Origin: a virus
Reading direction: 5' to 3' (one strand)
DNA length: 64,000 bases
IMG/VR virus record: IMGVR_UViG_3300024252_000004
Coordinates: 280,770 to 344,769 of that record
Positions 6,733 to 60,098 of this stretch are shown in pieces (the stretch's first letter is position 1; every line of letters begins with the position of its first letter). Made by a program: the position numbers and the translations under genes. The notes below the pieces were generated by a model. That model made no database searches, was not told the DNA's origin, and saw nothing but the letters and a program-made list of their open reading frames with translations.

Positions 6733-7125
6733 ATGAGCGAGAAAACACTTAAGCCTATTGAACCTATTGATGATATGGTTATGACCATTATCGCTGACCT
6801 TAAGGAACTTGATTGTGTTACAGAGGTAATGGAATCTGGGTGGGAGGTTGGTTATAGGATTCAAGGAACGCCTTTGACTCTTATGGTGGCTCACGATGAC
6901 ATCAAGCCAACATTTCTATTTGTGAGAACAGAAATCTCAGAGGATCTTTTTAACTCATTTTGGGTTGATGACATGAATACAAAAGACCCAAACAAGTTGA
7001 GCCTTTATGTTCCAGTTCGCAAGCTATTCGATTTGGTAGATTTGCCAGAAGAAATGATTGAGTTTTTGGCGGTCAGGATTTCAATGTTTGTTGATGGAGA
7101 TATCTCCGAGCAGCAAGACTTTTAG
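6733..7125 (+). CDS. hypothetical acidic protein
   Basis: ATG 6733 just after PMM stop; same frame open from 6367, alternative start 6586. Confidence 0.4.
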   Translation: MSEKTLKPIEPIDDMVMTIIADLKELDCVTEVMESGWEVGYRIQGTPLTLMVAHDDIKPTFLFVRTEISEDLFNSFWVDDMNTKDPNKLSLYVPVRKLFDLVDLPEEMIEFLAVRISMFVDGDISEQQDF

Positions 7126-8524: not shown

Positions 8525-8617
8525 TGCGGGGTCGACTAGTCTGGCCCATGTCACCAGTCTCATAAGCTGGCTCTGAGTATACCTCAATCGTTGGTTCAAA
8601 TCCAACCCCCGCACCCA
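8525..8617 (+). tRNA. tRNA-like, anticodon CAT on class-II scaffold (19-nt variable arm), CCA encoded
   Basis: acceptor TGCGGGG/CCCCGCA perfect, D stem GAC/GTC, anticodon stem CCAGT/GCTGG loop CTCATAA, variable arm hairpin TGAG-TATAC-CTCA, T arm identical to tRNA 2556. Confidence 0.5.
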
Positions 8618-12779: not shown

Positions 12780-12812
12780 TAAAAGCCGGGTAATCGGTTT
12801 TAGAAGCGAATT

Positions 12813-12841
12813 TTTCTAAATTTCTCGTAGGATGTTATAGA
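12813..12841 (+). promoter_or_regulatory. sigma70-like promoter, family copy 3
   Basis: TTTCTA-N17(AATTTCTCGTAGGATGT)-TATAGA; tRNA-Tyr 62 nt downstream. Confidence 0.55.
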
Positions 12842-12902
12842 AAAAATAGATACGGTTTTGCTTTTAACCTTCGTCATGCGTAGGATAAAAGCACCGTTTA
12901 AT

Positions 12903-12990
12903 GGGTCGTTATCCCGTAGGGGCAGCGGTGGAGACTGTAAATCTCCTGTCATTATTGACTCGGTTGGTTCGACTCCAGCACGGCCCACCA
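12903..12990 (+). tRNA. tRNA-Tyr(GTA), class II, CCA encoded
   Basis: acceptor GGGTCGT/ACGGCCC, anticodon stem GGAGA/TCTCC loop CTGTAAA, long variable arm, T-loop TTCGACT. Confidence 0.7.
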
Positions 12991-13130: not shown

Positions 13131-13664
13131 TCAATTCCGATCTGTTCCACCACTGAATCGTCCATCACCTGATAGGAAGTGATCAACTTCGTGACAGGTC
13201 GGACAAACAATCTCTAAGTTCTCAATCGAGTTATTCTCTCTATTGCGATCTTTATGATGAACTTGTAGAACTTCAGGATGCTTATCGTATCCGCAATGAG
13301 AGCATATCTGTTCAAGATGCTCTTTTGCAGTTTTGCGATAATCCTTTCGGTTATCAGTATAGTGCGGCGGATGAATTTCTTTTATCCCTCCTATCCTTTG
13401 TGCAATATCTTTGCAATTTCTTGAGCAAAAAACAAATCCGCTTTTAGATGCAGCAATCTTAGAGGCAGACCTGTAAAAGTCTTTATCACAAATAGCACAA
13501 ACACAATTTGGCTTTTGTATCTTCGGATTTTTCTTTCTCCATTCAAAAGAGCATTTGCGATTGCAAAATTTTGCGTTTCCTCTGTTTAATTCTTTAATTT
13601 CTGCATCAAATTGCGTATAACAATTTAAGCAACTTTTCTTAATGGTTCTACCTTTGTAAGACAT
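13131..13664 (-). CDS. HNH homing endonuclease
   Basis: HHKDRNRENNSIENLEIVCPTCH HNH motif plus multiple CxxC pairs; sits between tRNA-Tyr and tRNA-Cys. Confidence 0.75.
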   Translation of the reverse strand: MSYKGRTIKKSCLNCYTQFDAEIKELNRGNAKFCNRKCSFEWRKKNPKIQKPNCVCAICDKDFYRSASKIAASKSGFVFCSRNCKDIAQRIGGIKEIHPPHYTDNRKDYRKTAKEHLEQICSHCGYDKHPEVLQVHHKDRNRENNSIENLEIVCPTCHEVDHFLSGDGRFSGGTDRN

Positions 13665-13821: not shown

Positions 13822-13843
13822 CTCCCTTAGCTCAGTTGGTTAA
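13822..13843 (+). pseudogene. tRNA 5' remnant (acceptor + D arm start CTCCCTTAGCTCAGTTGGTTAA) truncated by HNH gene
   Basis: canonical tRNA 5' end with no matching D-stem 3' strand, anticodon or T arm; overlaps the stop of minus-strand HNH 13840-14325. Confidence 0.45.
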
Positions 13844-14325
13844 TTCCATTTTGGTTTTAACTTATAGTGTTCTTCTCTGTGGCAGTTTGCACACAGCATG
13901 ACGCATTTGTCAAGTTCAGCTTTAATGGTATCCCAGGCATAAGTATTCCCAGAGCCAATGCCGAAATCTTTCTCGTTTGGTTCTAAATGGTGAAAATCAA
14001 ATGCATCAATACATTTGTCATATCCACAATACTCGCACTTTTCTCCTTTATATTCTACGGCTTTAATCTTACACTGCCATCTTCTTTTTTGCACATAGTA
14101 CTTGTTCTTACACTTTTTTGAGCAAAATTTTCCTGAAGATGGCAAGTCACACAAATGCCATGTGCATTCCAAAGCTTTTGACTTTTCTTTATTTTTTGGA
14201 GAAGTTGATAGTCCAAATTTCTTAAGCCAATGACGAACATTTGTTTGCGAGCAAGATAGCTCTTTTGCGATTTCTCTGGTAGAATAATTATTATCAACTA
14301 ATAACTTTAAAGTTTCTAATTCCAT
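13840..14325 (-). CDS. HNH endonuclease with N-terminal HTH
   Basis: FDFHHLEPNEKD...LCANCHREEH HNH motif; N-terminal STREIAKELSCSQTNVRHWLKKFG helix-turn-helix. Confidence 0.75.
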   Translation of the reverse strand: MELETLKLLVDNNYSTREIAKELSCSQTNVRHWLKKFGLSTSPKNKEKSKALECTWHLCDLPSSGKFCSKKCKNKYYVQKRRWQCKIKAVEYKGEKCEYCGYDKCIDAFDFHHLEPNEKDFGIGSGNTYAWDTIKAELDKCVMLCANCHREEHYKLKPKWN

Positions 14326-14331
14326 AGTTCA

Positions 14332-14351
14332 CCTCATGTAATTATATGAGG
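14332..14351 (-). promoter_or_regulatory. hairpin sequestering the RBS of HNH gene 13840-14325
   Basis: on mRNA CCTCAT-ATAATTAC-ATGAGG with SD GAGGTG inside the 3' arm, ATG 6 nt downstream. Confidence 0.45.
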
Positions 14352-14365
14352 TTAATAATAGATGA

Positions 14366-14452
14366 GCTACTGTGGCCGAGCGGTTGAAGGCAGCAGGCTG
14401 TTAACCTGCCTGGGAAACCACATCATAGGTTCAAATCCTATCGGTAGCGCCA
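14366..14452 (+). tRNA. tRNA with tRNA-Ser body (D arm TGGCCGAGCGGTTGAAGGC, long variable arm, G73) but anticodon GTT
   Basis: acceptor GCTACTG/CGGTAGC, anticodon stem GCAGG/CCTGC loop CTGTTAA (one change from Ser GCT loop CTGCTAA), CCA encoded. Confidence 0.5.
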
Positions 14453-14479
14453 AATTTAATAAGAGGCTGAACATGAGCC

Positions 14480-14728
14480 TTGCAGGGAGAGCCAATTATT
14501 AAAGAATCAGATAAGAATAATGGAGTATGCTATCCGGCAACGTCGATCAAAGTGATTCCCCTTGTTGAGGGAATTAGATTGCGGCCGAAGATGTACGGTT
14601 TGACAGAAGATCAGGTATCCAATATGAGTGATCAGATGATCAAAGATTGGTACGAAGATTGTGAAAACGTATGCGAGCATGATTTAGATATTGCGAGAGT
14701 GTCGGACACCTTTGATCCCAGCGGGTAG
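14480..14728 (+). CDS. hypothetical protein; residues 24-45 resemble GyrB/topoisomerase N-terminal motif
   Basis: SIKVIPLVEGIRLRPKMYGLTEDQ resembles [24 protein letters not shown]; the rest of the 82-aa product does not. Confidence 0.35.
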   Translation: MQGEPIIKESDKNNGVCYPATSIKVIPLVEGIRLRPKMYGLTEDQVSNMSDQMIKDWYEDCENVCEHDLDIARVSDTFDPSG

Positions 14729-14978
14729 GGGTCGAGATAACGCGGTCAAGTAGAGTTCCCAAAGGGCTGTTTATGATACGGTCACAATCGAACGACCTAG
14801 AGTTATACCTGATTTGAATTCGGGCAATGGGCTGGCCAATAGTCCTTAGACGTAATCCTGTTGAAGTCGTCGCAGGTCCCACTTGAGGGTTGTTTTGGAC
14901 ATGGGTGCTTAGTGTCAACGGCAAGCACGATTGGCTGTTAACCAATTAGTTTGGGTTCAAATCCCAAAGTACCCGCCA
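14721..14978 (+). ncRNA. ORF-free structured RNA with tRNA-like 3' end (unknown class)
   Basis: no ORF of 60 aa or more; 3' TTGGG-TTCAAAT-CCCAA + AGTACCC-G-CCA; 5' GCGGGTA can pair with TACCCGC. Confidence 0.3.
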
Positions 14979-15003
14979 CAAAGTATCAAAAGGTTTTGTC
15001 ATT

Positions 15004-15288
15004 ATGAAAGAGATTTTTGGACCTTGGGTTAAGGCTGCAAGGTGTTTGGATTGCGACGACGGCTTTAAAAGCAAATGGAGTGCCTGGATTGAAGAAAGTG
15101 ATTTTGATACAGAGGAAGAGATGTTGGGGCAAACTCTCATCTGCCGCTCATGTGGCTCGATATTCAAATGGCAAAAAGCTGTCGGAAGAAAAATCAAAAC
15201 GTATAAAACATCTTGGATTTTTCTTGACAAATTGGTTAAAAGCGAATGGGAATGGCGACACGAAGCTGTTCTGGAAGGAATAAATTGA
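15004..15288 (+). CDS. hypothetical Cys-containing protein
   Basis: 94-aa ORF, CLDCDD..CRSCG. Confidence 0.4.
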   Translation: MKEIFGPWVKAARCLDCDDGFKSKWSAWIEESDFDTEEEMLGQTLICRSCGSIFKWQKAVGRKIKTYKTSWIFLDKLVKSEWEWRHEAVLEGIN

Positions 15289-15704
15289 AAAGAGTTTATG
15301 TTGATATGGACGGAGTCCTTTGTGATTACGTTGCAAAATTTACAGAACTCCGTAACGAAGGAAACAAGTTTCCTCAGCAAAGCTTTGACTTCTTCAGAAG
15401 TATGAAGCCTATGCCATCGGCTCTTGCAGCTATGGGAATACTATCTAAACATTTCGATGTTTGGATTTTGACTAAGCCTTCCTACAAAAACCCTATGTCT
15501 TATACAGAAAAGAGACTTTGGGTTGAGGACCATCTTGGTCTGGATTGGTGTAAGAAGCTGATCCTTTGTCCTGATAAGGGATTGGTTATAGGAGATTATC
15601 TTATTGATGATTTCTTGTGGCCTGAATTTCAAGGTGAACAAGTTCATTTTGGTTCAAATAGATTTCCAAATTGGAGATCGGTAATAGATTATATGCGCCC
15701 GTGA
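15246..15704 (+). CDS. HAD-superfamily 5'(3')-deoxyribonucleotidase-like phosphatase
   Basis: VYVDMDGVLCD motif I (DxDxV); start may be TTG 15284 rather than ATG 15246. Confidence 0.55.
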   Translation: MGMATRSCSGRNKLKRVYVDMDGVLCDYVAKFTELRNEGNKFPQQSFDFFRSMKPMPSALAAMGILSKHFDVWILTKPSYKNPMSYTEKRLWVEDHLGLDWCKKLILCPDKGLVIGDYLIDDFLWPEFQGEQVHFGSNRFPNWRSVIDYMRP

Positions 15705-15785
15705 GCCGAGTGGTTGATGGCCCCAGACTCTTAATCTGGTACAGGTAGTGCTGCAACGTAGGTTCGAATCCTACCGGGCGTACCA
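15695..15785 (+). tRNA. class-II scaffold tRNA with anticodon CTT (Lys codon AAG), A73, CCA encoded
   Basis: acceptor GCGCCCG/CGGGCGT, D arm GCC-GAGTGGTTGAT-GGC, anticodon stem CCAGA/TCTGG loop CTCTTAA, 18-nt variable arm, T-loop TTCGAAT. Confidence 0.5.
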
Positions 15786-21690: not shown

Positions 21691-21768
21691 GGGGAATTAG
21701 CTCAATTGGCCAGAGCGGCAGATTCTAGACCTGCGACAGTGTGGGTTCGAGCCCCACATTCCCTACCA
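21691..21768 (+). tRNA. candidate amber-suppressor tRNA, anticodon CTA, tRNA-Trp-like body
   Basis: acceptor GGGGAAT/ATTCCCT, D arm GCTC-AATTGGCCA-GAGC, anticodon loop TTCTAGA on stem GCAGA/CCTGC (A-C mismatch at 31-39), 6-nt variable, T arm GTGGG-TTCGAGC-CCCAC, CCA encoded. Confidence 0.5.
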
Positions 21769-35223: not shown

Positions 35224-36138
35224 ATGCACCTAACGTCAATAGAACAAATTGACCGAGAGACATTAGAGAAGTTATTCCAAAGAGCGGATTACTGGAAAAG
35301 AATAAGAACACAAAAGCTTACAACAATTAAGCCGCTTCAGGGCCGCTTATTGACAAACCTATTTTATGAGCCATCGACAAGGACTGCATCATCGTTCTTT
35401 GCGGCGGCTTCTTTTCTTGGTGCCTCTGTTAATCAAATTACCAATGTAGCTTTCTCTTCTGTATCAAAAGGCGAAACGTTTGAAGACACCATTCTGACTC
35501 TCGCACAATACTCTGACGGAATTATCTTAAGGCACCCTGAGAAAGGGTACGCAGACTTAGCCGCCAGTGTGTCTCCTGTCCCCATCATTAATGCTGGGGA
35601 TGGCACAGGTGAACACCCTACTCAGACGCTACTTGATTTATATACAATATACTCAGAGCTTGGCAGGATAGATGACTTAGCTGTGGCAATGGTTGGTGAT
35701 CTTAAAAATGGGCGAACAGTTCATAGTTTAACTAAAGCGTTTGCAAAGTACGAAACAGAAACCGATCTTATTTTCATCTCTCCAGAAGAGCTTAAGATGC
35801 CCGAAGAGTATTGCGAAGTCTCTAAGGTTCTTGGGATACAAGAAACAGAAGATATGACTTCCGCAATGGAAAATAATCATATCGATGTACTGTATATGAC
35901 TCGCATACAAAAAGAGCGCTTCAATAATCAAGAAGATTATAAAAGGTATCATGGCTGCTATGAGCTTACGCCAAAAGAAATGAAGCTCATGCCGGACGAA
36001 TCATGTGTCCTTCATCCCTTGCCAAGGGTTGGGGAGATATCGTCAGAGGTTGATCACGACCCAAGGGCTGCATACTTTCGTCAAGTAAAGAATGGTATGT
36101 TCATGAGAATGGCGATATTAGAGGCATTAATTTCTTAA
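35224..36138 (+). CDS. pyrB: aspartate carbamoyltransferase catalytic subunit
   Basis: EPSTRT carbamoyl-phosphate motif, HPTQ, and VLHPLPRVGEI..FRQVKNGMFMRMAILEAL characteristic of ATCase rather than OTCase. Confidence 0.8.
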   Translation: MHLTSIEQIDRETLEKLFQRADYWKRIRTQKLTTIKPLQGRLLTNLFYEPSTRTASSFFAAASFLGASVNQITNVAFSSVSKGETFEDTILTLAQYSDGIILRHPEKGYADLAASVSPVPIINAGDGTGEHPTQTLLDLYTIYSELGRIDDLAVAMVGDLKNGRTVHSLTKAFAKYETETDLIFISPEELKMPEEYCEVSKVLGIQETEDMTSAMENNHIDVLYMTRIQKERFNNQEDYKRYHGCYELTPKEMKLMPDESCVLHPLPRVGEISSEVDHDPRAAYFRQVKNGMFMRMAILEALIS

Positions 36139-40554: not shown

Positions 40555-40640
40555 TCAGCCTTTTGCTTCGTTCTAAAAATTGCGTATATATCCTAGACAA
40601 GAAAGCTAAATCCTGTAAACCTCCATCAAGGAAGAAATTA

Positions 40641-41561
40641 ATGCTCCGTAGACTATTCAGTATGTTCAGTGGATCCGCTCCTACCATCAAGGCAAGGAAC
40701 GTGACACATAAGTACCTGTCCAACGCTCAGGTGTTGGCCAAGGCAATGGGGGATAAGCTTAGGATTAATCCTTCTGCCACCGCCCCCAAGGGAAAGAATC
40801 TTTTCATCATCGACTTCTATGGCGATAAGATGGCTTCCCGCGCAGAATTTCTTGGAGAGGAGATTTCTTCCTTGATGACCGTTGCAAATCCGGAGACTGA
40901 TGCGGTCCTTATCCGCCTCAATTCTCCTGGTGGAGCCGCACACGCATACGGATATGCGGCTTCTCAGATTGAAAGACTCAGAAAGCGTGGCCTTCATGTC
41001 ACTGTGTCTGTAGATCGCGTAGCCGCTTCCGGTGGTTACTGGATGGCTTGTGTTGCGGATAAGGTTATCGCAGCGCCTTACTCTATCATCGGTTCCATTG
41101 GAGTCGTTGCAGAGTTTCCGAACTTCGCAAAGGTCCTTGAGAATCTCGGAGTTGAGTACAAGCAGTACACTGCTGGTAAGTTTAAGAGAACCGTATCTCC
41201 TTTCACCGAGGCAGATGAAGAGGGTGAGGCAGAGTTTGTTCGATCTCTCAATGAGATTTACGATGACTTCAGAGAGCACGTTATCTCCTTCCGTCCCGAC
41301 GTTGATGCTGACGAGGTAGCTAACGGTAGAACTTGGAATGGAACCAGGGCTCTTGAGATTGGCCTTGTTGATGAGGTTCTTACTTCGGAAGAGTTCATCG
41401 GGCGTGCTTGCACAGAGTTCTCGGCAATTAAGATTGAGTTCATCGGCGAAAGAGATAGTTTGGGCCGCATGATCGGAACTGGCATCGCAACGACTCTGTC
41501 TGACATCATCAGCCTTTCGATTGAGAAGCTGTTTGTCAACATGGGAATGTCGTGGAAGTAG
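40641..41561 (+). CDS. S49-family serine peptidase (SppA-like; candidate prohead protease)
   Basis: ATG 40641 after AAGGAAG; LIRLNSPGGAAHAYGYAASQIERLRKRG..SVDRVAASGGYWMA..KQYTAGKFK ClpP/crotonase-fold S49 signature. Confidence 0.7.
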   Translation: MLRRLFSMFSGSAPTIKARNVTHKYLSNAQVLAKAMGDKLRINPSATAPKGKNLFIIDFYGDKMASRAEFLGEEISSLMTVANPETDAVLIRLNSPGGAAHAYGYAASQIERLRKRGLHVTVSVDRVAASGGYWMACVADKVIAAPYSIIGSIGVVAEFPNFAKVLENLGVEYKQYTAGKFKRTVSPFTEADEEGEAEFVRSLNEIYDDFREHVISFRPDVDADEVANGRTWNGTRALEIGLVDEVLTSEEFIGRACTEFSAIKIEFIGERDSLGRMIGTGIATTLSDIISLSIEKLFVNMGMSWK

Positions 41562-42476: not shown

Positions 42477-42666
42477 GGAAGCTTGTTAAGAAGGCGGTGA
42501 AGGTTGTTGTTACACCAGTTGCAACAGCCGCTGTTATGTCACAGTGGGCAATTGTAATTCTTGCCCTTTATGCACAGACAATTCGTCGCAACTATGGATC
42601 TAATAAGGAAGACTAATCTAATAATGAAGTGAGTTATAGTGAACGCTCACTTCACAGGGATTAGTC

Positions 42667-44443: not shown

Positions 44444-44846
44444 GGGGGCGTTTTGGATTCGACCGGGTAACAGATAGGAATAGTGCAAGCCGATCAAGGT
44501 AACTCAGATCGTTATAAGCGTTACAAAAAACAAACTAGTTGACGACTATTCATTCGTGTACGCAAACGCAGGCAGAGGCTTCGGCGCTCCTGTAGTAGCA
44601 TACGCCTAATTCCGATTTAGGCATGTGGACTCTGTGTTCCATATATCCAAACACAGATAAGTGGTTGAACGCACTGACATAAACATTGTTCAAAAATGGA
44701 GTAGCCCGAAAGGGAGGAGGCGTCTATCATTTGGCGTCAGGGGATAAAATGAATACTTTGCCTATTTAGAGAAATGGGATAAGCTTGTGAACGACTTGAA
44801 ATTGACGTTATGCGACACGAGGGTTCGACTCCCTCCGCCTCCACCA
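44444..44846 (+). ncRNA. ssrA: tmRNA (SsrA), standard one-piece
   Basis: 5' GGGGGCGTTTTGGATTCGACCGGG and 3' GAGGGTTCGACTCCCTCCGCCTCCACCA match tmRNA termini; acceptor GGGGGCG/CGCCTCC with G3-U70 and A73; tag frame GCA AAC GCA GGC AGA GGC TTC GGC GCT CCT GTA GTA GCA TAC GCC TAA (ANAGRGFGAPVVAYA). Confidence 0.85.
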
Positions 44847-53809: not shown

Positions 53810-55411
53810 ATGGGAAAAGTTGTAAAGATTGGACCTGAAGCAAGAAAAGAAATGCTTCAAGGTGTAGATATTTTAGCAAACGCCGTTAAGGCCACTCTTG
53901 GTCCGCGAGGAAGAAACGTTGCTATCGAAAGGGAATGGGGTCACCCGCTTATTACAAAAGATGGTGTGACTGTAGCTCGACAGATCAGATTGGATGATAG
54001 AATTCAGAACATGGGAGCACAGTTGGTGCGTTCGGTTGCAGCCGCAGCAAATAGCGCGGCAGGAGACGGGACAACAACTGCAACTGTTCTCGCTCAGGCA
54101 ATCTACTCCAAAGGCTTAGTTCTTGTAGACGAAGAGGGACTCAACCCTGTTCTTCTTAGACGCGGCATTGACCTTGCTGTGACAAAACTTTCAAGTAGAC
54201 TGAAGGGCTTATCTGCATCTGTAAGCGATGAAGCAAGCATGAGAAGTGTTGCTGTAATCTCTGCAAATAATGATAAGGTTCTCGGTGCCAAAATCGCAGA
54301 AGCTATCGCGGCAGTTGGTCAGCACGGAGTCATTTCCGTTGAGGAAGCGACTGGAAGATCAACTGAGGTGTTCTACTCGGAAGGTATCAAGCTCGATAAG
54401 GGATGGACCTCTGAGCATTTCGTGACAAATTCTGCAAGATTTACGGCAGAATTTGATGATTGTCTTATATTTCCTTATGATGGGGCGATTTCCAGCATCA
54501 CTGATGTAAGGGAAATTTTTGAGGAATTAGCCGAGCAATCCAAACCCGTTCTTTTGGTTGTAAAGCAGATCACAGATGAAGCTATTGCTCATCTTGTCTA
54601 CAACAAGATTCAGGGAAATATTAGAATCGCGGTAGTTCGTTCTCCTGGGTTTGGTGATTCGAGACGTGCATTCCTCGAAGACCTTGCCATTGTTTCTGGC
54701 GGAAAGATGTTCTGTGATAATGACGGAATCGGTCTTGACGGAGCAACAGTTGCTGATCTTGGGACCGCACGCAGGGTCATCGTAAGCCAGAACAGCACAA
54801 CTATAATTGAAGGTGGGGCAGATCCCAAAGATGTTGAGGCGAGAGCCATTCAGATTAAAGAGCAGCTTACTGCTGGTGGTCAACATGATTATCAGCTTGA
54901 GATTCTAAAAAGCAGACTTGCAAGAATCACTGGCTCGGCAGCGATTTTTAAGGTCGGCGGAAAATCTGAAGCTGAAATGAGAGAGAGAAAGGACAGAGTG
55001 GAAGATGCTATCAACGCTGTACGTTCAGCGCTTGAAGAAGGTGTAGTTCCCGGTGGTGGCTCCGCACTAATTCATGCCCTTCCAGTCCTTGACGAGATTG
55101 AGACAGATGGCCTTCTTCCTGAAGAGGTGGCCGGCATTGGAATTATCAGAGAGGCAGTTAAGGCCCCATTTTATCAGATTCTTGATAACGCCGGAGTCAC
55201 TGGTGCTGATGATTTTGTTGAGCAGATTTTGAATTCTGATGAGCCAAGCGGTTATGATGCTCTTAATCTTGAGTTTGTAACTAACATGTTAGACAATGGG
55301 ATTATGGATCCTTGTAAAGTTGTAAGAAGCTCTTTGGAGCATGCTGCATCAGCCAGTGGAACACTGCTGACGACAGAGGTTGCAATTTACGAAACTGAAA
55401 CGGAGAGATAA
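53810..55411 (+). CDS. groL: chaperonin GroEL (Cpn60)
   Basis: 533 aa; MGKVVKIGPEARKEMLQGVDILANAVKATLGPRGRNV..AGDGTTTATVLAQAI..full-length GroEL similarity. Confidence 0.9.
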   Translation: MGKVVKIGPEARKEMLQGVDILANAVKATLGPRGRNVAIEREWGHPLITKDGVTVARQIRLDDRIQNMGAQLVRSVAAAANSAAGDGTTTATVLAQAIYSKGLVLVDEEGLNPVLLRRGIDLAVTKLSSRLKGLSASVSDEASMRSVAVISANNDKVLGAKIAEAIAAVGQHGVISVEEATGRSTEVFYSEGIKLDKGWTSEHFVTNSARFTAEFDDCLIFPYDGAISSITDVREIFEELAEQSKPVLLVVKQITDEAIAHLVYNKIQGNIRIAVVRSPGFGDSRRAFLEDLAIVSGGKMFCDNDGIGLDGATVADLGTARRVIVSQNSTTIIEGGADPKDVEARAIQIKEQLTAGGQHDYQLEILKSRLARITGSAAIFKVGGKSEAEMRERKDRVEDAINAVRSALEEGVVPGGGSALIHALPVLDEIETDGLLPEEVAGIGIIREAVKAPFYQILDNAGVTGADDFVEQILNSDEPSGYDALNLEFVTNMLDNGIMDPCKVVRSSLEHAASASGTLLTTEVAIYETETER

Positions 55412-59014: not shown

Positions 59015-59087
59015 GGAGCATGTCCGTAGCTCTTAGTAGTTGCCTTGTATTCGCTTCGGTACTATTATCGCTCATGGAGGAATTTAC

Positions 59088-60098
59088 ATGTTGTTATCCG
59101 CAGATGTTGTAGTGGGGCTCGCTTGGGGCGATGAAGCAAAAGGAAAGATCACCTCAGCCTTGGCAGCTACAGGGCAGTACGACGCCGTGGCTCGCTGGGC
59201 CGGAGGCAATAACGCAGGCCATACGGTCTACGTCAATGGCGAAAAATACAAAACACACCTTGTTCCAAGCGGCGTATTCCACGGAATGCTTTCCATCGTT
59301 GGTCCCGGCTGTGTATTGCATCCAGAAGAATTTGAAAAAGAATTGGCTTACCTCGCAGGACACGGATTCGATACCTCTCTTGTGAAGGTATCTCCGAATT
59401 GCCACATTGTTCAAGACGAGCATATTGAGTTTGACAAGCAGAACCTTGCAAAGAAGCTTGGCACAACCTCAAAAGGTATTGCACCGAGTTACGCAGCTAA
59501 GGCGGCAAGAACAGGTCTTCTTGCCAAAGACTATTACGAAGGCAGTGACATCCTATGGGACGGTCAGCTTAGCGGTGTATTATTGTGTGAAGGAGCGCAG
59601 GGGGCTTGGTTAGATATTGATCACGGGAATTATCCCTATGTGACCTCAAGCATTACACTTGCCTATGGAGCTTGCAGTATAGGCTTCGCACCACAGCTCA
59701 TTAAGAGCATCTGGGGCGCTGCCAAAATTTATGACACAAGAAGCGGAGAAGATCCTATTTTTCCTGCGTCACTACTTGATGACCCTATGCTGTCAAAGGT
59801 TGGGGAAATTGGGGCCGAATATGGTGTGACCACAGGGCGCAGAAGAAAGGTAAATTGGCTTGATGTTGATATGCTGATTAAGTCTATCAATTTGACTGGA
59901 TGCACACACGTTGTTGTTAGCAAATGTGATGTATTGGAAGAGGCCGGAGTTTACAGGATGTATTGTAGAGGGATTCAGAACGAGCTTTCTGAGTTCGAAA
60001 GCATTACCGATATGACCGGAGTGCTGGAGACTCTTCTTAGAAAGAATTGTTCCCTTCTCAAGAGAGTGATCTTTTCCTCTTCACCGGAGAATATATGA
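59088..60098 (+). CDS. purA: adenylosuccinate synthetase
   Basis: SD GGAGG + ATG 59088; VVVGLAWGDEAKGK P-loop and GGNNAGHTV motif. Confidence 0.85.
   Translation: MLLSADVVVGLAWGDEAKGKITSALAATGQYDAVARWAGGNNAGHTVYVNGEKYKTHLVPSGVFHGMLSIVGPGCVLHPEEFEKELAYLAGHGFDTSLVKVSPNCHIVQDEHIEFDKQNLAKKLGTTSKGIAPSYAAKAARTGLLAKDYYEGSDILWDGQLSGVLLCEGAQGAWLDIDHGNYPYVTSSITLAYGACSIGFAPQLIKSIWGAAKIYDTRSGEDPIFPASLLDDPMLSKVGEIGAEYGVTTGRRRKVNWLDVDMLIKSINLTGCTHVVVSKCDVLEEAGVYRMYCRGIQNELSEFESITDMTGVLETLLRKNCSLLKRVIFSSSPENI

What the first reader, a model, noticed from the sequence alone, without database searches (positions are those of the whole stretch)
14721..14978. ORF-free ~260-nt structured RNA ending in a tRNA-like T arm and CCA
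No ORF of 60 aa or more sits here on the plus strand. The 3' end reads TTGGG-TTCAAAT-CCCAA followed by AGTACCC-G-CCA. The 5' end GCGGGTA can pair with TACCCGC. It is too long for a tRNA and lacks an obvious tmRNA tag frame. Candidates are an intron-containing tRNA, a second tmRNA-like RNA, or another tRNA-like regulatory RNA. The upstream ORF ends with a GyrB-like fragment, so an intron splitting a gene is also conceivable.
Basis: seen in the sequence. Interest (0 to 1): 0.55.

Follow-up and report, generated by a model that had tools for sequence, protein, structure and literature searches.

The report
Ordinary tRNA-Asn plus upstream tRNA-like RNA
The flagged 260 bases are not one RNA: the last 76 are an ordinary asparagine tRNA gene of a giant phage. 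Just upstream, partly outside the flagged span, lies a separate, conserved, folded ~140-base RNA that matches no catalogued family, is laid out like a long-armed tRNA, and has no known function.

Summary
The window comes from a ~400-kb phage with 31 tRNA genes and a tmRNA. Its cloverleaf is 100% paired in two related phages. The proposed 5'-3' helix GCGGGUA/UACCCGC is real but at chance level (about 10% in shuffles; 4 of 31 tRNAs here have an equivalent). It is not conserved. I found no tmRNA, no intron and no split gyrB gene.

Two syntenic relatives changed the picture. Window 14689-14829 is a conserved non-coding element with a covarying fold. A closing stem abuts a T-arm-like hairpin with an invariant UUUGAAU loop. 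Two more hairpins and a long arm complete a class-II-tRNA layout. With a structure predicted from the window sequence alone, 11 of 12 changed pairs stay paired in the relative (P about 1.5e-4). Rfam has no match.

The closest analogue is T4 RNAC, a small stable RNA of unknown function from the T4 tRNA cluster. Only three sequences from one phage lineage exist, so function and processing are inferred. The upstream ORF (14480-14728) is a real small protein with a GyrB N-terminal-arm-like motif.

The parts
14903..14978 (+). Canonical tRNA-Asn(GUU), 76 nt. Acceptor GGGUGCU/AGUACCC, T loop UUCAAAU, discriminator G73, encoded CCA.
   Evidence: ARAGORN. Rfam RF00005 scores 58.6 bits against a gathering score of 29. 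Orthologues are L057 7557-7632 and L059 1101-1176. The cloverleaf is 100% paired across the three, with 6 of 21 pairs changed on both sides.
14689..14829 (+). Conserved structured non-coding RNA element with a class-II-tRNA-like layout. Closing stem P1 is 14689-14693 with 14825-14829. Hairpin A is 14696-14711 (GUGU-CGG-ACAC core). Hairpin B is 14712-14735 (8 bp, loop AGCGGGUA). Long arm C is 14737-14806, with a variable apical hairpin. The T-arm-like hairpin is 14808-14824 (5 bp, invariant loop UUUGAAU) and abuts the 3' strand of P1.
   Evidence: Homologous blocks occur in L057/L058 and L059 at 78% and 75% identity. RNAalifold gives 43 pairs, 9 with double compensatory change and 1 broken. Cells are 99.2% paired, and slid controls give 0-1 double changes. 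Column-shuffle z is -2.81. A structure from the window alone has 11 of 12 changed pairs kept in L057, P=1.5e-4. No frame shows coding-like substitutions. There is no Rfam hit at E<=10.
14831..14902 (+). Window-specific spacer between the element and the tRNA-Asn. It acts as the 5' leader of the pre-tRNA and has no counterpart in the relatives.
   Evidence: It is unaligned in A3. In L057 and L059 the tRNA-Asn starts 1 nt after the stop codon of the small ORF. The window holds no repeat of it, and no plus-strand promoter or terminator match lies in it.
14480..14728 (+). ORF82, a real small protein gene with a GyrB N-terminal-arm-like motif (residues 17-41). Its last 13 codons and its TAG stop are encoded by the 5' part of the RNA element, and the stop lies in the loop of hairpin B.
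   Evidence: Its codon-usage score is 0.27. Real genes average 0.29 and the best spurious ORF scores 0.02. Homologues are P0007 (56 aa) and P0008 (76 aa), at E 3-4e-4 against 1.8 billion proteins. The family profile hits the N-terminal arms of GyrB/ParE in the PDB. Homologues end about 25 aa earlier.
14366..14452 (+). First tRNA-Asn(GUU), 87 nt with a long variable arm. It bounds the locus upstream. In the relatives the RNA element starts 16 nt after this gene.
   Evidence: ARAGORN and Rfam, 59.4 bits. The L057 orthologue is at 6859-6943. It resembles the 86-nt tRNA-Asn of Escherichia phage 4MG.

Best explanation
The flagged span holds two independent RNA genes of a giant phage's tRNA array, plus a spacer.

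(1) 14903-14978 is an ordinary tRNA-Asn(GUU) with an encoded CCA.

(2) 14689-14829 is a separate ~140-nt non-coding RNA. Its ends pair into a short stem that stacks directly on a T-arm-like hairpin. The stem encloses two hairpins and a long arm, so the five helices follow the order of a class II (long-variable-arm) tRNA.

Inferred mechanism: the element is co-transcribed with the tRNAs on the plus strand. Because its closing stem plus T hairpin imitate the acceptor/T minihelix, the tRNA-processing enzymes cut it out as a small stable RNA: RNase P at the 5' side and 3' tRNA nucleases. This is how T4 RNAC from the T4 tRNA cluster is thought to be made. Its conserved loops would then bind some tRNA-directed factor.

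Shown: the tRNA, the conservation, the covarying fold and the tRNA-like topology. Inferred: transcription, excision and any decoy or regulatory role.
For: tRNA-Asn.

Element, conservation and position:
- It is present in both related phage lineages found (L057/L058 and L059).
- It keeps its integrity although its position relative to the small ORF is swapped. In the relatives the order is tRNA-Asn#1, element, ORF(s), tRNA-Asn#2. In the window it is tRNA-Asn#1, ORF82, element, spacer, tRNA-Asn#2.

Element, structure:
- Covariation: 9 of 43 pairs changed on both sides, 99.2% of cells paired, slid controls 0-1.
- Non-circular test: the centroid fold of the window sequence alone has 32 pairs. In L057, 12 of these changed, 11 stayed paired and 8 are double changes. 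Random placement of the same 35 substitutions breaks 8.6 +/- 2.3 pairs; 1 is broken in reality (P=1.5e-4).
- The figures match those of the bona fide tRNA-Asn across the same three genomes (6 of 21 double changes).
- They contrast with a conserved control spacer upstream of tRNA-Tyr (covariation term -0.09, 8 broken pairs).
- It is not coding in any frame.

Element, tRNA likeness:
- The T-loop-type loop UUUGAAU is invariant, and the stem below it covaries.
- With filters off, the model built from the element finds tRNA genes as its next-best hits in the window, aligned end to end.
- In T4 it aligns helix for helix to tRNA-Ser, and its best hit in the T4 tRNA region is RNAC (12.2 bits, E 0.016).
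Against: - Only three distinct sequences from two sub-lineages exist, so each compensatory change is a single event. R-scape-type statistics are not possible.
- Single-sequence folding energy is unremarkable (z +0.70 in the window, -2.44 in L057, -1.63 in L059).
- P1 is only 5-6 weak pairs. No CCA is encoded after it, and the first nucleotide is not the usual G.
- The strand cannot be fixed by energy alone. The minus-strand alignment z is -3.12 against -2.37 for plus. The plus strand has the lower consensus energy (-36.7 against -28.8 kcal/mol) and several invariant G-U pairs.
- There is no expression evidence.
- The similarity to T4 RNAC is architectural and weak, not demonstrable homology.
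- DNA identity of the element (about 76-78%) is no higher than that of neighbouring conserved genes.
Confidence: 0.7

Rival explanations
1. Only the tRNA-Asn is functional. Everything upstream (14729-14902) is an unstructured intergenic leader, and the conserved block is conserved only through recent common descent.
For: Gaps of 120-330 nt before tRNA genes are common in this window. The element's DNA identity to the relatives resembles that of neighbouring genes. No Rfam family matches.
Against: Neutral drift would break pairs, yet 35 substitutions leave only 1 of 32 independently predicted pairs broken (P=1.5e-4). Other non-coding and several coding flanks are unalignable, while this block survives a rearrangement intact. 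A conserved control spacer shows no such covariation.
Confidence: 0.15
2. The element is a cis-acting part of the precursor, not a free RNA. Examples would be a processing or stability signal for the tRNA array, or a leader controlling the gene that follows it.
For: In L057 and L059 it is followed within about 20-30 nt by a ribosome-binding site and the start codon of a small ORF. It always lies between the two tRNA-Asn genes.
Against: In the window it follows the small ORF, overlaps that ORF's 3' end, and is followed by a spacer and a tRNA. No single downstream target is therefore conserved. No terminator or antiterminator features and no riboswitch or T-box hit were found.
Confidence: 0.1
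3. One reading: one ~260-nt RNA closed by GCGGGUA/UACCCGC. This could be an intron-containing tRNA, a tmRNA-like RNA, or an intron splitting a gyrB gene.
For: The 7-nt complement exists. The minimum-energy fold of the excised 258 nt uses it. The upstream ORF does carry a GyrB-arm-like motif.
Against: - The 3' 76 nt fold as a complete, conserved tRNA on their own.
- The helix is at chance level and is not conserved. In the relatives the loop reads GAGAGUA against UACCCUC, giving only 3 contiguous pairs.
- GCGGGUA lies in the loop of hairpin B of the separate element.
- In L057 and L059 the element and the tRNA are separated by one or two protein genes.
- ARAGORN intron and tmRNA modes and Rfam intron and tmRNA models find nothing.
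- There is no downstream GyrB exon.
Confidence: 0.02
4. The conserved block is a small protein gene on the minus strand (ORF 14640-14945, 101 aa).
For: The minus frame is open across the element in the window and in L057.
Against: Its codon-usage score is -0.20, in the non-coding range. L059 has an in-frame stop. Substitutions show no third-position bias, with 17 non-synonymous against 9 synonymous codon changes. There are no Pfam or PHROG hits, and no gene is called there in any relative.
Confidence: 0.02

Closest known systems
Bacterial/phage tRNA-Asn(GUU) (Rfam RF00005)
   Same: 14903-14978 has every cloverleaf feature: GUU anticodon in a 7-nt loop, GG in the D loop, T loop UUCAAAU, G73 and an encoded CCA. 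It lies in a phage tRNA array.
   Different: Nothing of note. It is one of two tRNA-Asn(GUU) genes at this locus, and the other has a long variable arm.
Bacteriophage T4 RNAC (species 1 RNA) and RNAD, small stable RNAs of the T4 tRNA cluster
   Same: They are non-coding, encoded on the same strand inside a phage tRNA cluster, and 119-139 nt long. RNAC carries a T arm abutting an acceptor-like stem, and it is the best hit of the element's covariance model in the T4 tRNA region. Their function is still unknown (PMC3014915, PMC9697503).
   Different: There is no demonstrable sequence homology (12.2 bits, E 0.016 in 16 kb). The helix content differs. The T4 RNAs have a canonical UUCGAAU loop, whereas the element has UUUGAAU. 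Expression and processing are shown for T4 but not here.
Class II tRNAs (Ser/Leu/Tyr) with a long variable arm
   Same: The order and spacing of the five helices are the same. The closing stem is followed by a 2-nt linker, a hairpin in the D-arm position, one in the anticodon-arm position, an arm in the variable-arm position, and a T-like hairpin abutting the 3' strand. Infernal aligns the model helix for helix to T4 tRNA-Ser and end to end to window tRNAs.
   Different: The D-position hairpin is 6 bp with a 3-nt loop. The anticodon-position hairpin is 8 bp with an 8-nt loop, with no U33 and no anticodon context. The 'variable arm' is 70-79 nt. P1 is 5-6 bp and there is no CCA. It is not detected by ARAGORN or by the Rfam tRNA model even at E<=10.
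YrlA / bacterial Y RNAs (tRNA-mimicking module plus Ro-binding stem)
   Same: A small non-coding RNA with a tRNA-like T-arm module. This family is also found in phages (own knowledge: Chen et al. 2014, RNA).
   Different: No Rfam match to any family at E<=10. No TROVE/Rsr gene appeared among the 18 window ORFs scanned. No Ro-binding stem was recognised.
T-box leader (pairs with the tRNA NCCA end; the pairing base covaries with the discriminator)
   Same: The loop of hairpin B is complementary to the 3' end of the neighbouring tRNA-Asn, including the discriminator. The loop base opposite position 73 changes C to A where the discriminator changes G to U.
   Different: There is no T-box sequence, specifier loop or terminator, and no Rfam hit. 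The complementarity would require melting the acceptor stem. One of the two changed loop positions breaks the pairing.

Membership tests
tRNA (RF00005), for 14903-14978 | Score above the Rfam gathering threshold and detection by a tRNA finder | tested here: met
   58.6 bits against a threshold of 29. ARAGORN calls tRNA-Asn(gtt).
tRNA (RF00005), for 14903-14978 | Cloverleaf maintained by compensatory change in orthologues | tested here: met
   All 21 pairs are paired in all three genomes, and 6 pairs changed on both sides.
tRNA (RF00005), for 14903-14978 | Processing, aminoacylation with Asn and use in translation | not testable with these tools
   Only the sequence features G34 U35 U36 and G73 are visible. 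These are the E. coli AsnRS identity elements (own knowledge).
tmRNA (RF00023) | tRNA-Ala-like domain plus tag reading frame and pseudoknots, detected by Rfam or ARAGORN | tested here: not met
   There is no tmRNA hit in 14300-15100 at E<=10, nor with ARAGORN -m at a lowered threshold. The phage's tmRNA is at 44444-44846.
Intron-containing tRNA / group I intron | tRNA halves flanking an intron with a group I core | tested here: not met
   ARAGORN allowing introns of up to 300 nt returns only the uninterrupted tRNA-Asn. There is no Intron_gpI hit at E<=10. The sequence after GCGGGUA cannot form a D arm.
Split gyrB gene interrupted by an intron | Further GyrB-coding sequence downstream in a compatible frame | tested here: not met
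   tblastn of the motif finds no other copy in the window. The scanned ORFs have no GyrB, HATPase or Toprim domains. Homologues of the ORF are free-standing 55-76 aa proteins.
T4 RNAC-type small stable RNA of a phage tRNA cluster | Non-coding, same strand, embedded in a phage tRNA array | tested here: met
   It lies between two tRNA-Asn genes in three genomes. It is not coding.
T4 RNAC-type small stable RNA of a phage tRNA cluster | Acceptor-like stem abutting a T arm | tested here: met
   In the consensus structure the P1 3' strand directly follows a 5-bp hairpin with loop UUUGAAU. Both helices contain compensatory changes. The model aligns to the corresponding parts of T4 RNAC.
T4 RNAC-type small stable RNA of a phage tRNA cluster | Sequence homology to T4 RNAC or RNAD | tested here: not met
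   The score is only 12.2 bits (E 0.016 in a 16-kb search), carried by the T arm and closing stem. A blastn search of the phage collection found nothing.
T4 RNAC-type small stable RNA of a phage tRNA cluster | Accumulates as a discrete RNA excised by the tRNA-processing enzymes | not testable with these tools
   No expression data are available. This step is inferred from the architecture alone.
YrlA / Y RNA | Match to the family model and linkage to an rsr (TROVE) gene | tested here: not met
   No Rfam family matches at E<=10 in the window or in L057. No TROVE domain was seen in the ORFs scanned. Only part of the genome could be examined.

The most novel reading that the evidence does not exclude
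The element may be a tRNA mimic that senses or acts on the neighbouring tRNA-Asn. The loop of hairpin B pairs with the 3' acceptor strand, discriminator and C74 of tRNA-Asn#2. This gives 7 contiguous pairs in the window and 6 of 7 in the relatives. The loop base opposite the discriminator covaries: C with G73 in the window, A with U73 in the relatives. It would then be a T-box-like, acceptor-end-reading RNA in a phage. It might control maturation of tRNA-Asn, or shield it from (or act as bait for) a host tRNA-directed defence nuclease.
Probability: 0.06. Interest if true: 0.75.

Novelty: new variant of a known kind. Interest (0 to 1): 0.4.

Why it matters
The tRNA itself is routine. The neighbouring element adds a covariation-supported example to a poorly understood class: small tRNA-like RNAs embedded in phage tRNA clusters. 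The T4 prototypes, RNAC and RNAD, still have no known function (PMC3014915, PMC9697503). An independent example from a ~400-kb phage with a clear class-II-tRNA-like layout gives a second handle on what such RNAs do, for example as decoys for tRNA-binding enzymes or in tRNA-based phage-host conflict. It also shows that huge-phage tRNA arrays hold non-tRNA RNA genes that standard annotation misses. The case is limited to three sequences from one lineage and has no expression data.

Tried and rejected
The span cuts the real element in two.
- No repeats of the spacer occur in the window. No promoter or terminator match lies in it.
- Relaxed, intron and tmRNA modes of ARAGORN found nothing new on the plus strand.
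- All 20 or more contigs that carry ORF82 are 100% identical, so they give no comparative information.
- Relatives sought through NT5C, ORF94 and ORF299 in IMG/VR gave nothing syntenic.
- 36 loci of related huge phages, found through the 410-aa protein, contain no tRNA-Asn, no element and no ORF82 or ORF94 homologue.
- Exact and degenerate DNA patterns for the tRNA and the element found nothing in viral contigs or metagenome contigs.
- The single genome hit (Nocardia vaccinii, L060) is a chance match inside high-GC coding sequence with no RNA family.
- The locus of the distant ORF82 homologue P0008 has neither tRNAs nor the element.
- Minus-strand coding was rejected.
- An alternative fold seen in the single-sequence minimum-energy structures of L057 and L059 pairs GAGAGUGUCG with CGACG...UUCUC. 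The window sequence cannot form it, so I dropped it in favour of the covarying consensus.
- TAG read-through of ORF82 would add only 3 codons.

Full report
**Context.** The window is part of a very large phage genome. Contigs carrying its genes reach 414,644 bp. Almost all genes are on the plus strand. ARAGORN finds 31 tRNA genes and a tmRNA at 44444-44846, and Rfam confirms them. HNH homing-endonuclease genes sit on the minus strand inside the tRNA array at 13131-13664 and 13840-14325.

**The observation.** However, the T arm (TTGGG-TTCAAAT-CCCAA), AGTACCC, G and CCA are the 3' part of a complete 76-nt tRNA-Asn(GUU) at 14903-14978. Its own acceptor stem is GGGUGCU/AGUACCC. Rfam RF00005 gives 58.6 bits against a threshold of 29. 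Orthologues in two related phages keep all 21 cloverleaf pairs, with 6 pairs changed on both sides.

The proposed long-range helix GCGGGUA (14721-14727) with UACCCGC (14970-14976) exists. It would use the discriminator and C74, which a tRNA leaves unpaired. It is also at chance level. A 7-mer complementary to the last 12 nt occurs within 300 nt upstream in 10% of shuffles, and for 4 of the 31 tRNAs of this window. The 258-nt span has no excess folding energy (z -0.58), and neither does the 174-nt stretch 14729-14902 on either strand.

ARAGORN in relaxed, intron-tolerant and tmRNA modes adds nothing on the plus strand. Rfam at E<=10 shows no intron, tmRNA or other family. Gaps of 120-330 nt before tRNA genes are common in this window. 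At this stage the finding looked like a plain tRNA with a leader.

**The upstream ORF.** ORF 14480-14728 (82 aa) has the codon usage of real genes. Its score is 0.27, real genes average 0.29 and the best spurious ORF scores 0.02. All three plus frames of 14729-14902 are full of stops.

Single-sequence searches found nothing in Pfam, PHROGs or the PDB. The word-indexed search found only the protein itself. An exhaustive HMMER scan of 1.8 billion representatives found two small proteins, P0007 (56 aa) and P0008 (76 aa), at E 3-4e-4. A profile of the family hits the PDB almost exclusively at the N-terminal arm of GyrB/ParE: 27 of 28 hits, E 0.02-1.8, aligned as '[19 protein letters not shown]'.

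It belongs to a family of free-standing small proteins, not to an exon. There is no further GyrB-like sequence in the window.

**Finding relatives.** All contigs that carry ORF82 are 100% identical over 6.5 kb. IMG/VR and JGI scans with neighbouring proteins or DNA patterns gave nothing syntenic.

The 299-aa protein downstream has two homologues at 51-54% identity. Their contigs are L057/L058 (a 405,912-bp contig) and L059. These are syntenic: tRNA-Tyr, Ala, Asn..., Asn, Lys(CUU), the ORF299 homologue, Lys(UUU), Glu, tRNA(CUA).

**The unexpected element.** In both relatives a block homologous to window 14689-14829 starts 16 nt after the first tRNA-Asn. Identity is 78% to L057 and 75% to L059.

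Its position relative to the small ORF is swapped.
- L057: tRNA-Asn#1, element, ORF89, ORF56 (=P0007), tRNA-Asn#2.
- L059: tRNA-Asn#1, element, ORF55, tRNA-Asn#2.
- Window: tRNA-Asn#1, ORF82, element, 72-nt spacer, tRNA-Asn#2.

In the window the first ~40 nt of the element encode the C-terminal tail of ORF82 (DIARVSDTFDPSG*). The homologues lack this tail. In the relatives the second tRNA-Asn starts 1 nt after the stop codon of the ORF, so the window's 14831-14902 is lineage-specific.

**Structure of the element.** RNAalifold on the three distinct sequences predicts 43 pairs. Nine have compensatory changes on both sides, and only the terminal pair is broken.
- 99.2% of cells are paired. Sliding the 3' partners by 1-3 columns leaves 33-46% paired and 0-1 double changes.
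- Column-shuffled alignments give z = -2.81, with 3 of 500 shuffles as good.
- To avoid circularity I took the centroid fold of the window sequence alone (32 pairs) and asked how L057 treats it. Twelve pairs changed, 11 stayed paired and 8 are double changes. Random placement of the same 35 substitutions breaks 8.6 +/- 2.3 pairs, against 1 observed (P = 1.5e-4).
- These figures match those of the true tRNA-Asn in the same comparison.
- They contrast with a conserved control spacer upstream of tRNA-Tyr, which has a covariation term of -0.09 and 8 broken pairs.
- No reading frame on either strand shows a coding-like substitution pattern. The open minus frame has non-coding codon usage and a stop in L059.
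- Single-sequence energies are unremarkable (z +0.70, -2.44 and -1.63). The case rests on covariation.
- Energy z-scores do not decide the strand. The plus strand has the better consensus energy and several invariant G-U pairs, and it is the strand of all the tRNAs.

**Anatomy.**

| Part | Window coordinates | Features |
|---|---|---|
| P1 | 14689-14693 with 14825-14829 | Closing stem |
| Linker | 14694-14695 | 2 nt |
| Hairpin A | 14696-14711 | Invariant GUGU-CGG-ACAC core |
| Hairpin B | 14712-14735 | 8 bp; loop AGCGGGUA (AGAGAGUA in relatives) |
| Arm C | 14737-14806 | Conserved internal loops AAGUAGAG and CACAAUYGAA; apical hairpin differs in sequence and length in each genome but always pairs |
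| T-like hairpin | 14808-14824 | 5 bp; invariant loop UUUGAAU; directly abuts the 3' strand of P1 |

This is the helix order and spacing of a class II tRNA: acceptor, D, anticodon, long variable arm, T.
- The covariance model built from the element (R1) finds only the four source copies in 770 kb of window plus related loci.
- With filters off, its next-best hits in the window are tRNA genes aligned end to end.
- In the T4 tRNA region its best hit is RNAC (12.2 bits, E 0.016). It also aligns helix for helix to T4 tRNA-Ser.
- It is not a tRNA by ARAGORN or Rfam. It matches no Rfam 15 family even at E<=10.

GCGGGUA is the loop of hairpin B. In the relatives the loop reads GAGAGUA and the tRNA-Asn end reads UACCCUC. 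That gives 6 of 7 pairs with an internal A-C mismatch, and at most 3 contiguous pairs. One loop change (C to A) matches the discriminator change (G73 to U73), and the other breaks a pair. This is ambiguous. I treat it as chance and keep it only as the speculative 'novel case'.

**Mechanism.**
- Shown: a canonical tRNA-Asn, and a separate, conserved, covarying, non-coding element with a tRNA-like topology that behaves as a self-contained module within the array.
- Inferred: the element is co-transcribed with the tRNAs. It is excised by RNase P and 3' tRNA nucleases because P1 plus the T hairpin imitate the acceptor/T minihelix. It then accumulates as a small stable RNA.

[quoted passage not shown] A role as a decoy or ligand for a tRNA-directed factor is a guess.

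My probabilities are:
- about 0.98 for the tRNA;
- about 0.8 for a functional RNA structure;
- about 0.45 for tRNA-type excision;
- 0.15 or less for any specific downstream role.

**Novelty and score.** The tRNA is already known biology. The element is a new variant of a known kind, namely tRNA-like small RNAs in phage tRNA clusters, with no detectable homology to the T4 examples or to any Rfam family. Support comes from only three sequences in one lineage and there is no expression evidence. I rate interest at 0.4.

Noticed in passing
window 14480-14728 (also P0007 in L057 7386-7556, L059 933-1100, P0008 in L062 9001-9231): ORF82 belongs to a tiny family of 55-82 aa phage proteins. Their conserved core (I.VL.PVEAVRKRP.FYGLTEE.V..MSD....YY) imitates the N-terminal arm of GyrB/ParE. 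A family profile hits that arm in 27 of 28 PDB matches (E 0.02-1.8). It could be a gyrase-binding mimic or inhibitor. This has not been tested.
   Followed up: partly
window 14366-14452, 15695-15785, 2556-2646, 8525-8617: Four tRNAs with class-II-type long variable arms carry anticodons of class I amino acids: Asn GUU, Lys CUU, Ile GAU and Met CAU. A normal-length tRNA for the same amino acid is also present in the window (same anticodon for Asn, Ile and Met; UUU for Lys). The long tRNA-Asn has a Ser-like D arm and G73. ARAGORN found no tRNA-Ser in the window. Similar long tRNA-Asn and tRNA-Lys genes are annotated in Escherichia phage 4MG (L020 1497-1582 and 1240-1323).
   Followed up: partly
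window 14453-14902 compared with L057 6944-7556 and L059 739-1100: The order of the RNA element and the small ORF is swapped between the window phage and its relatives. L057 has an extra 89-aa ORF. In L059 the long-arm tRNA-Asn#1 is replaced by an unrelated 77-nt tRNA-Asn. The inter-tRNA segment is therefore a hotspot of rearrangement.
   Followed up: partly
window 21691-21768 (L057 10923-10998, L059 4489-4564): A conserved suppressor-type tRNA with anticodon CUA. TAG ends 15 of 102 predicted plus-strand genes in the window, and read-through extensions are mostly short and non-coding. This region shows no sign of TAG recoding.
   Followed up: partly
window 13131-13664 and 13840-14325 (minus strand): Two HNH homing-endonuclease genes lie inside the tRNA array. 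The second aligns at 76% DNA identity to L057 6345-6858, where no gene is called. It may be a decayed copy there.
   Followed up: no
window 12790-12905: The non-coding block upstream of tRNA-Tyr is conserved in L057 and L059. The wider gap 12780-12902 has a strong single-sequence fold (z -3.2). Covariation does not support a structure (8 broken pairs). I used it as a negative control.
   Followed up: partly
window 42477-42666 and 2130-2428: Other non-coding gaps have notably negative fold z-scores (-3.3 and -2.2 with mononucleotide shuffles). I did not examine them further.
   Followed up: no
window 35224-36138, 59040-60098, 53810-55411, 40563-41561, 15246-15704: Auxiliary genes typical of huge phages are present: aspartate/ornithine carbamoyltransferase, adenylosuccinate synthetase, a GroEL-type chaperonin, an S49 peptidase and an NT5C-type deoxyribonucleotidase.
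   Followed up: no
L057 6859-6946 compared with window 14366-14452: The long-arm tRNA-Asn encodes CCA in the window (…GGUAGCG-CCA) but not in L057 (…GGUAGCG-CUU). Every window tRNA gene whose 3' end I looked at encodes CCA.
   Followed up: no
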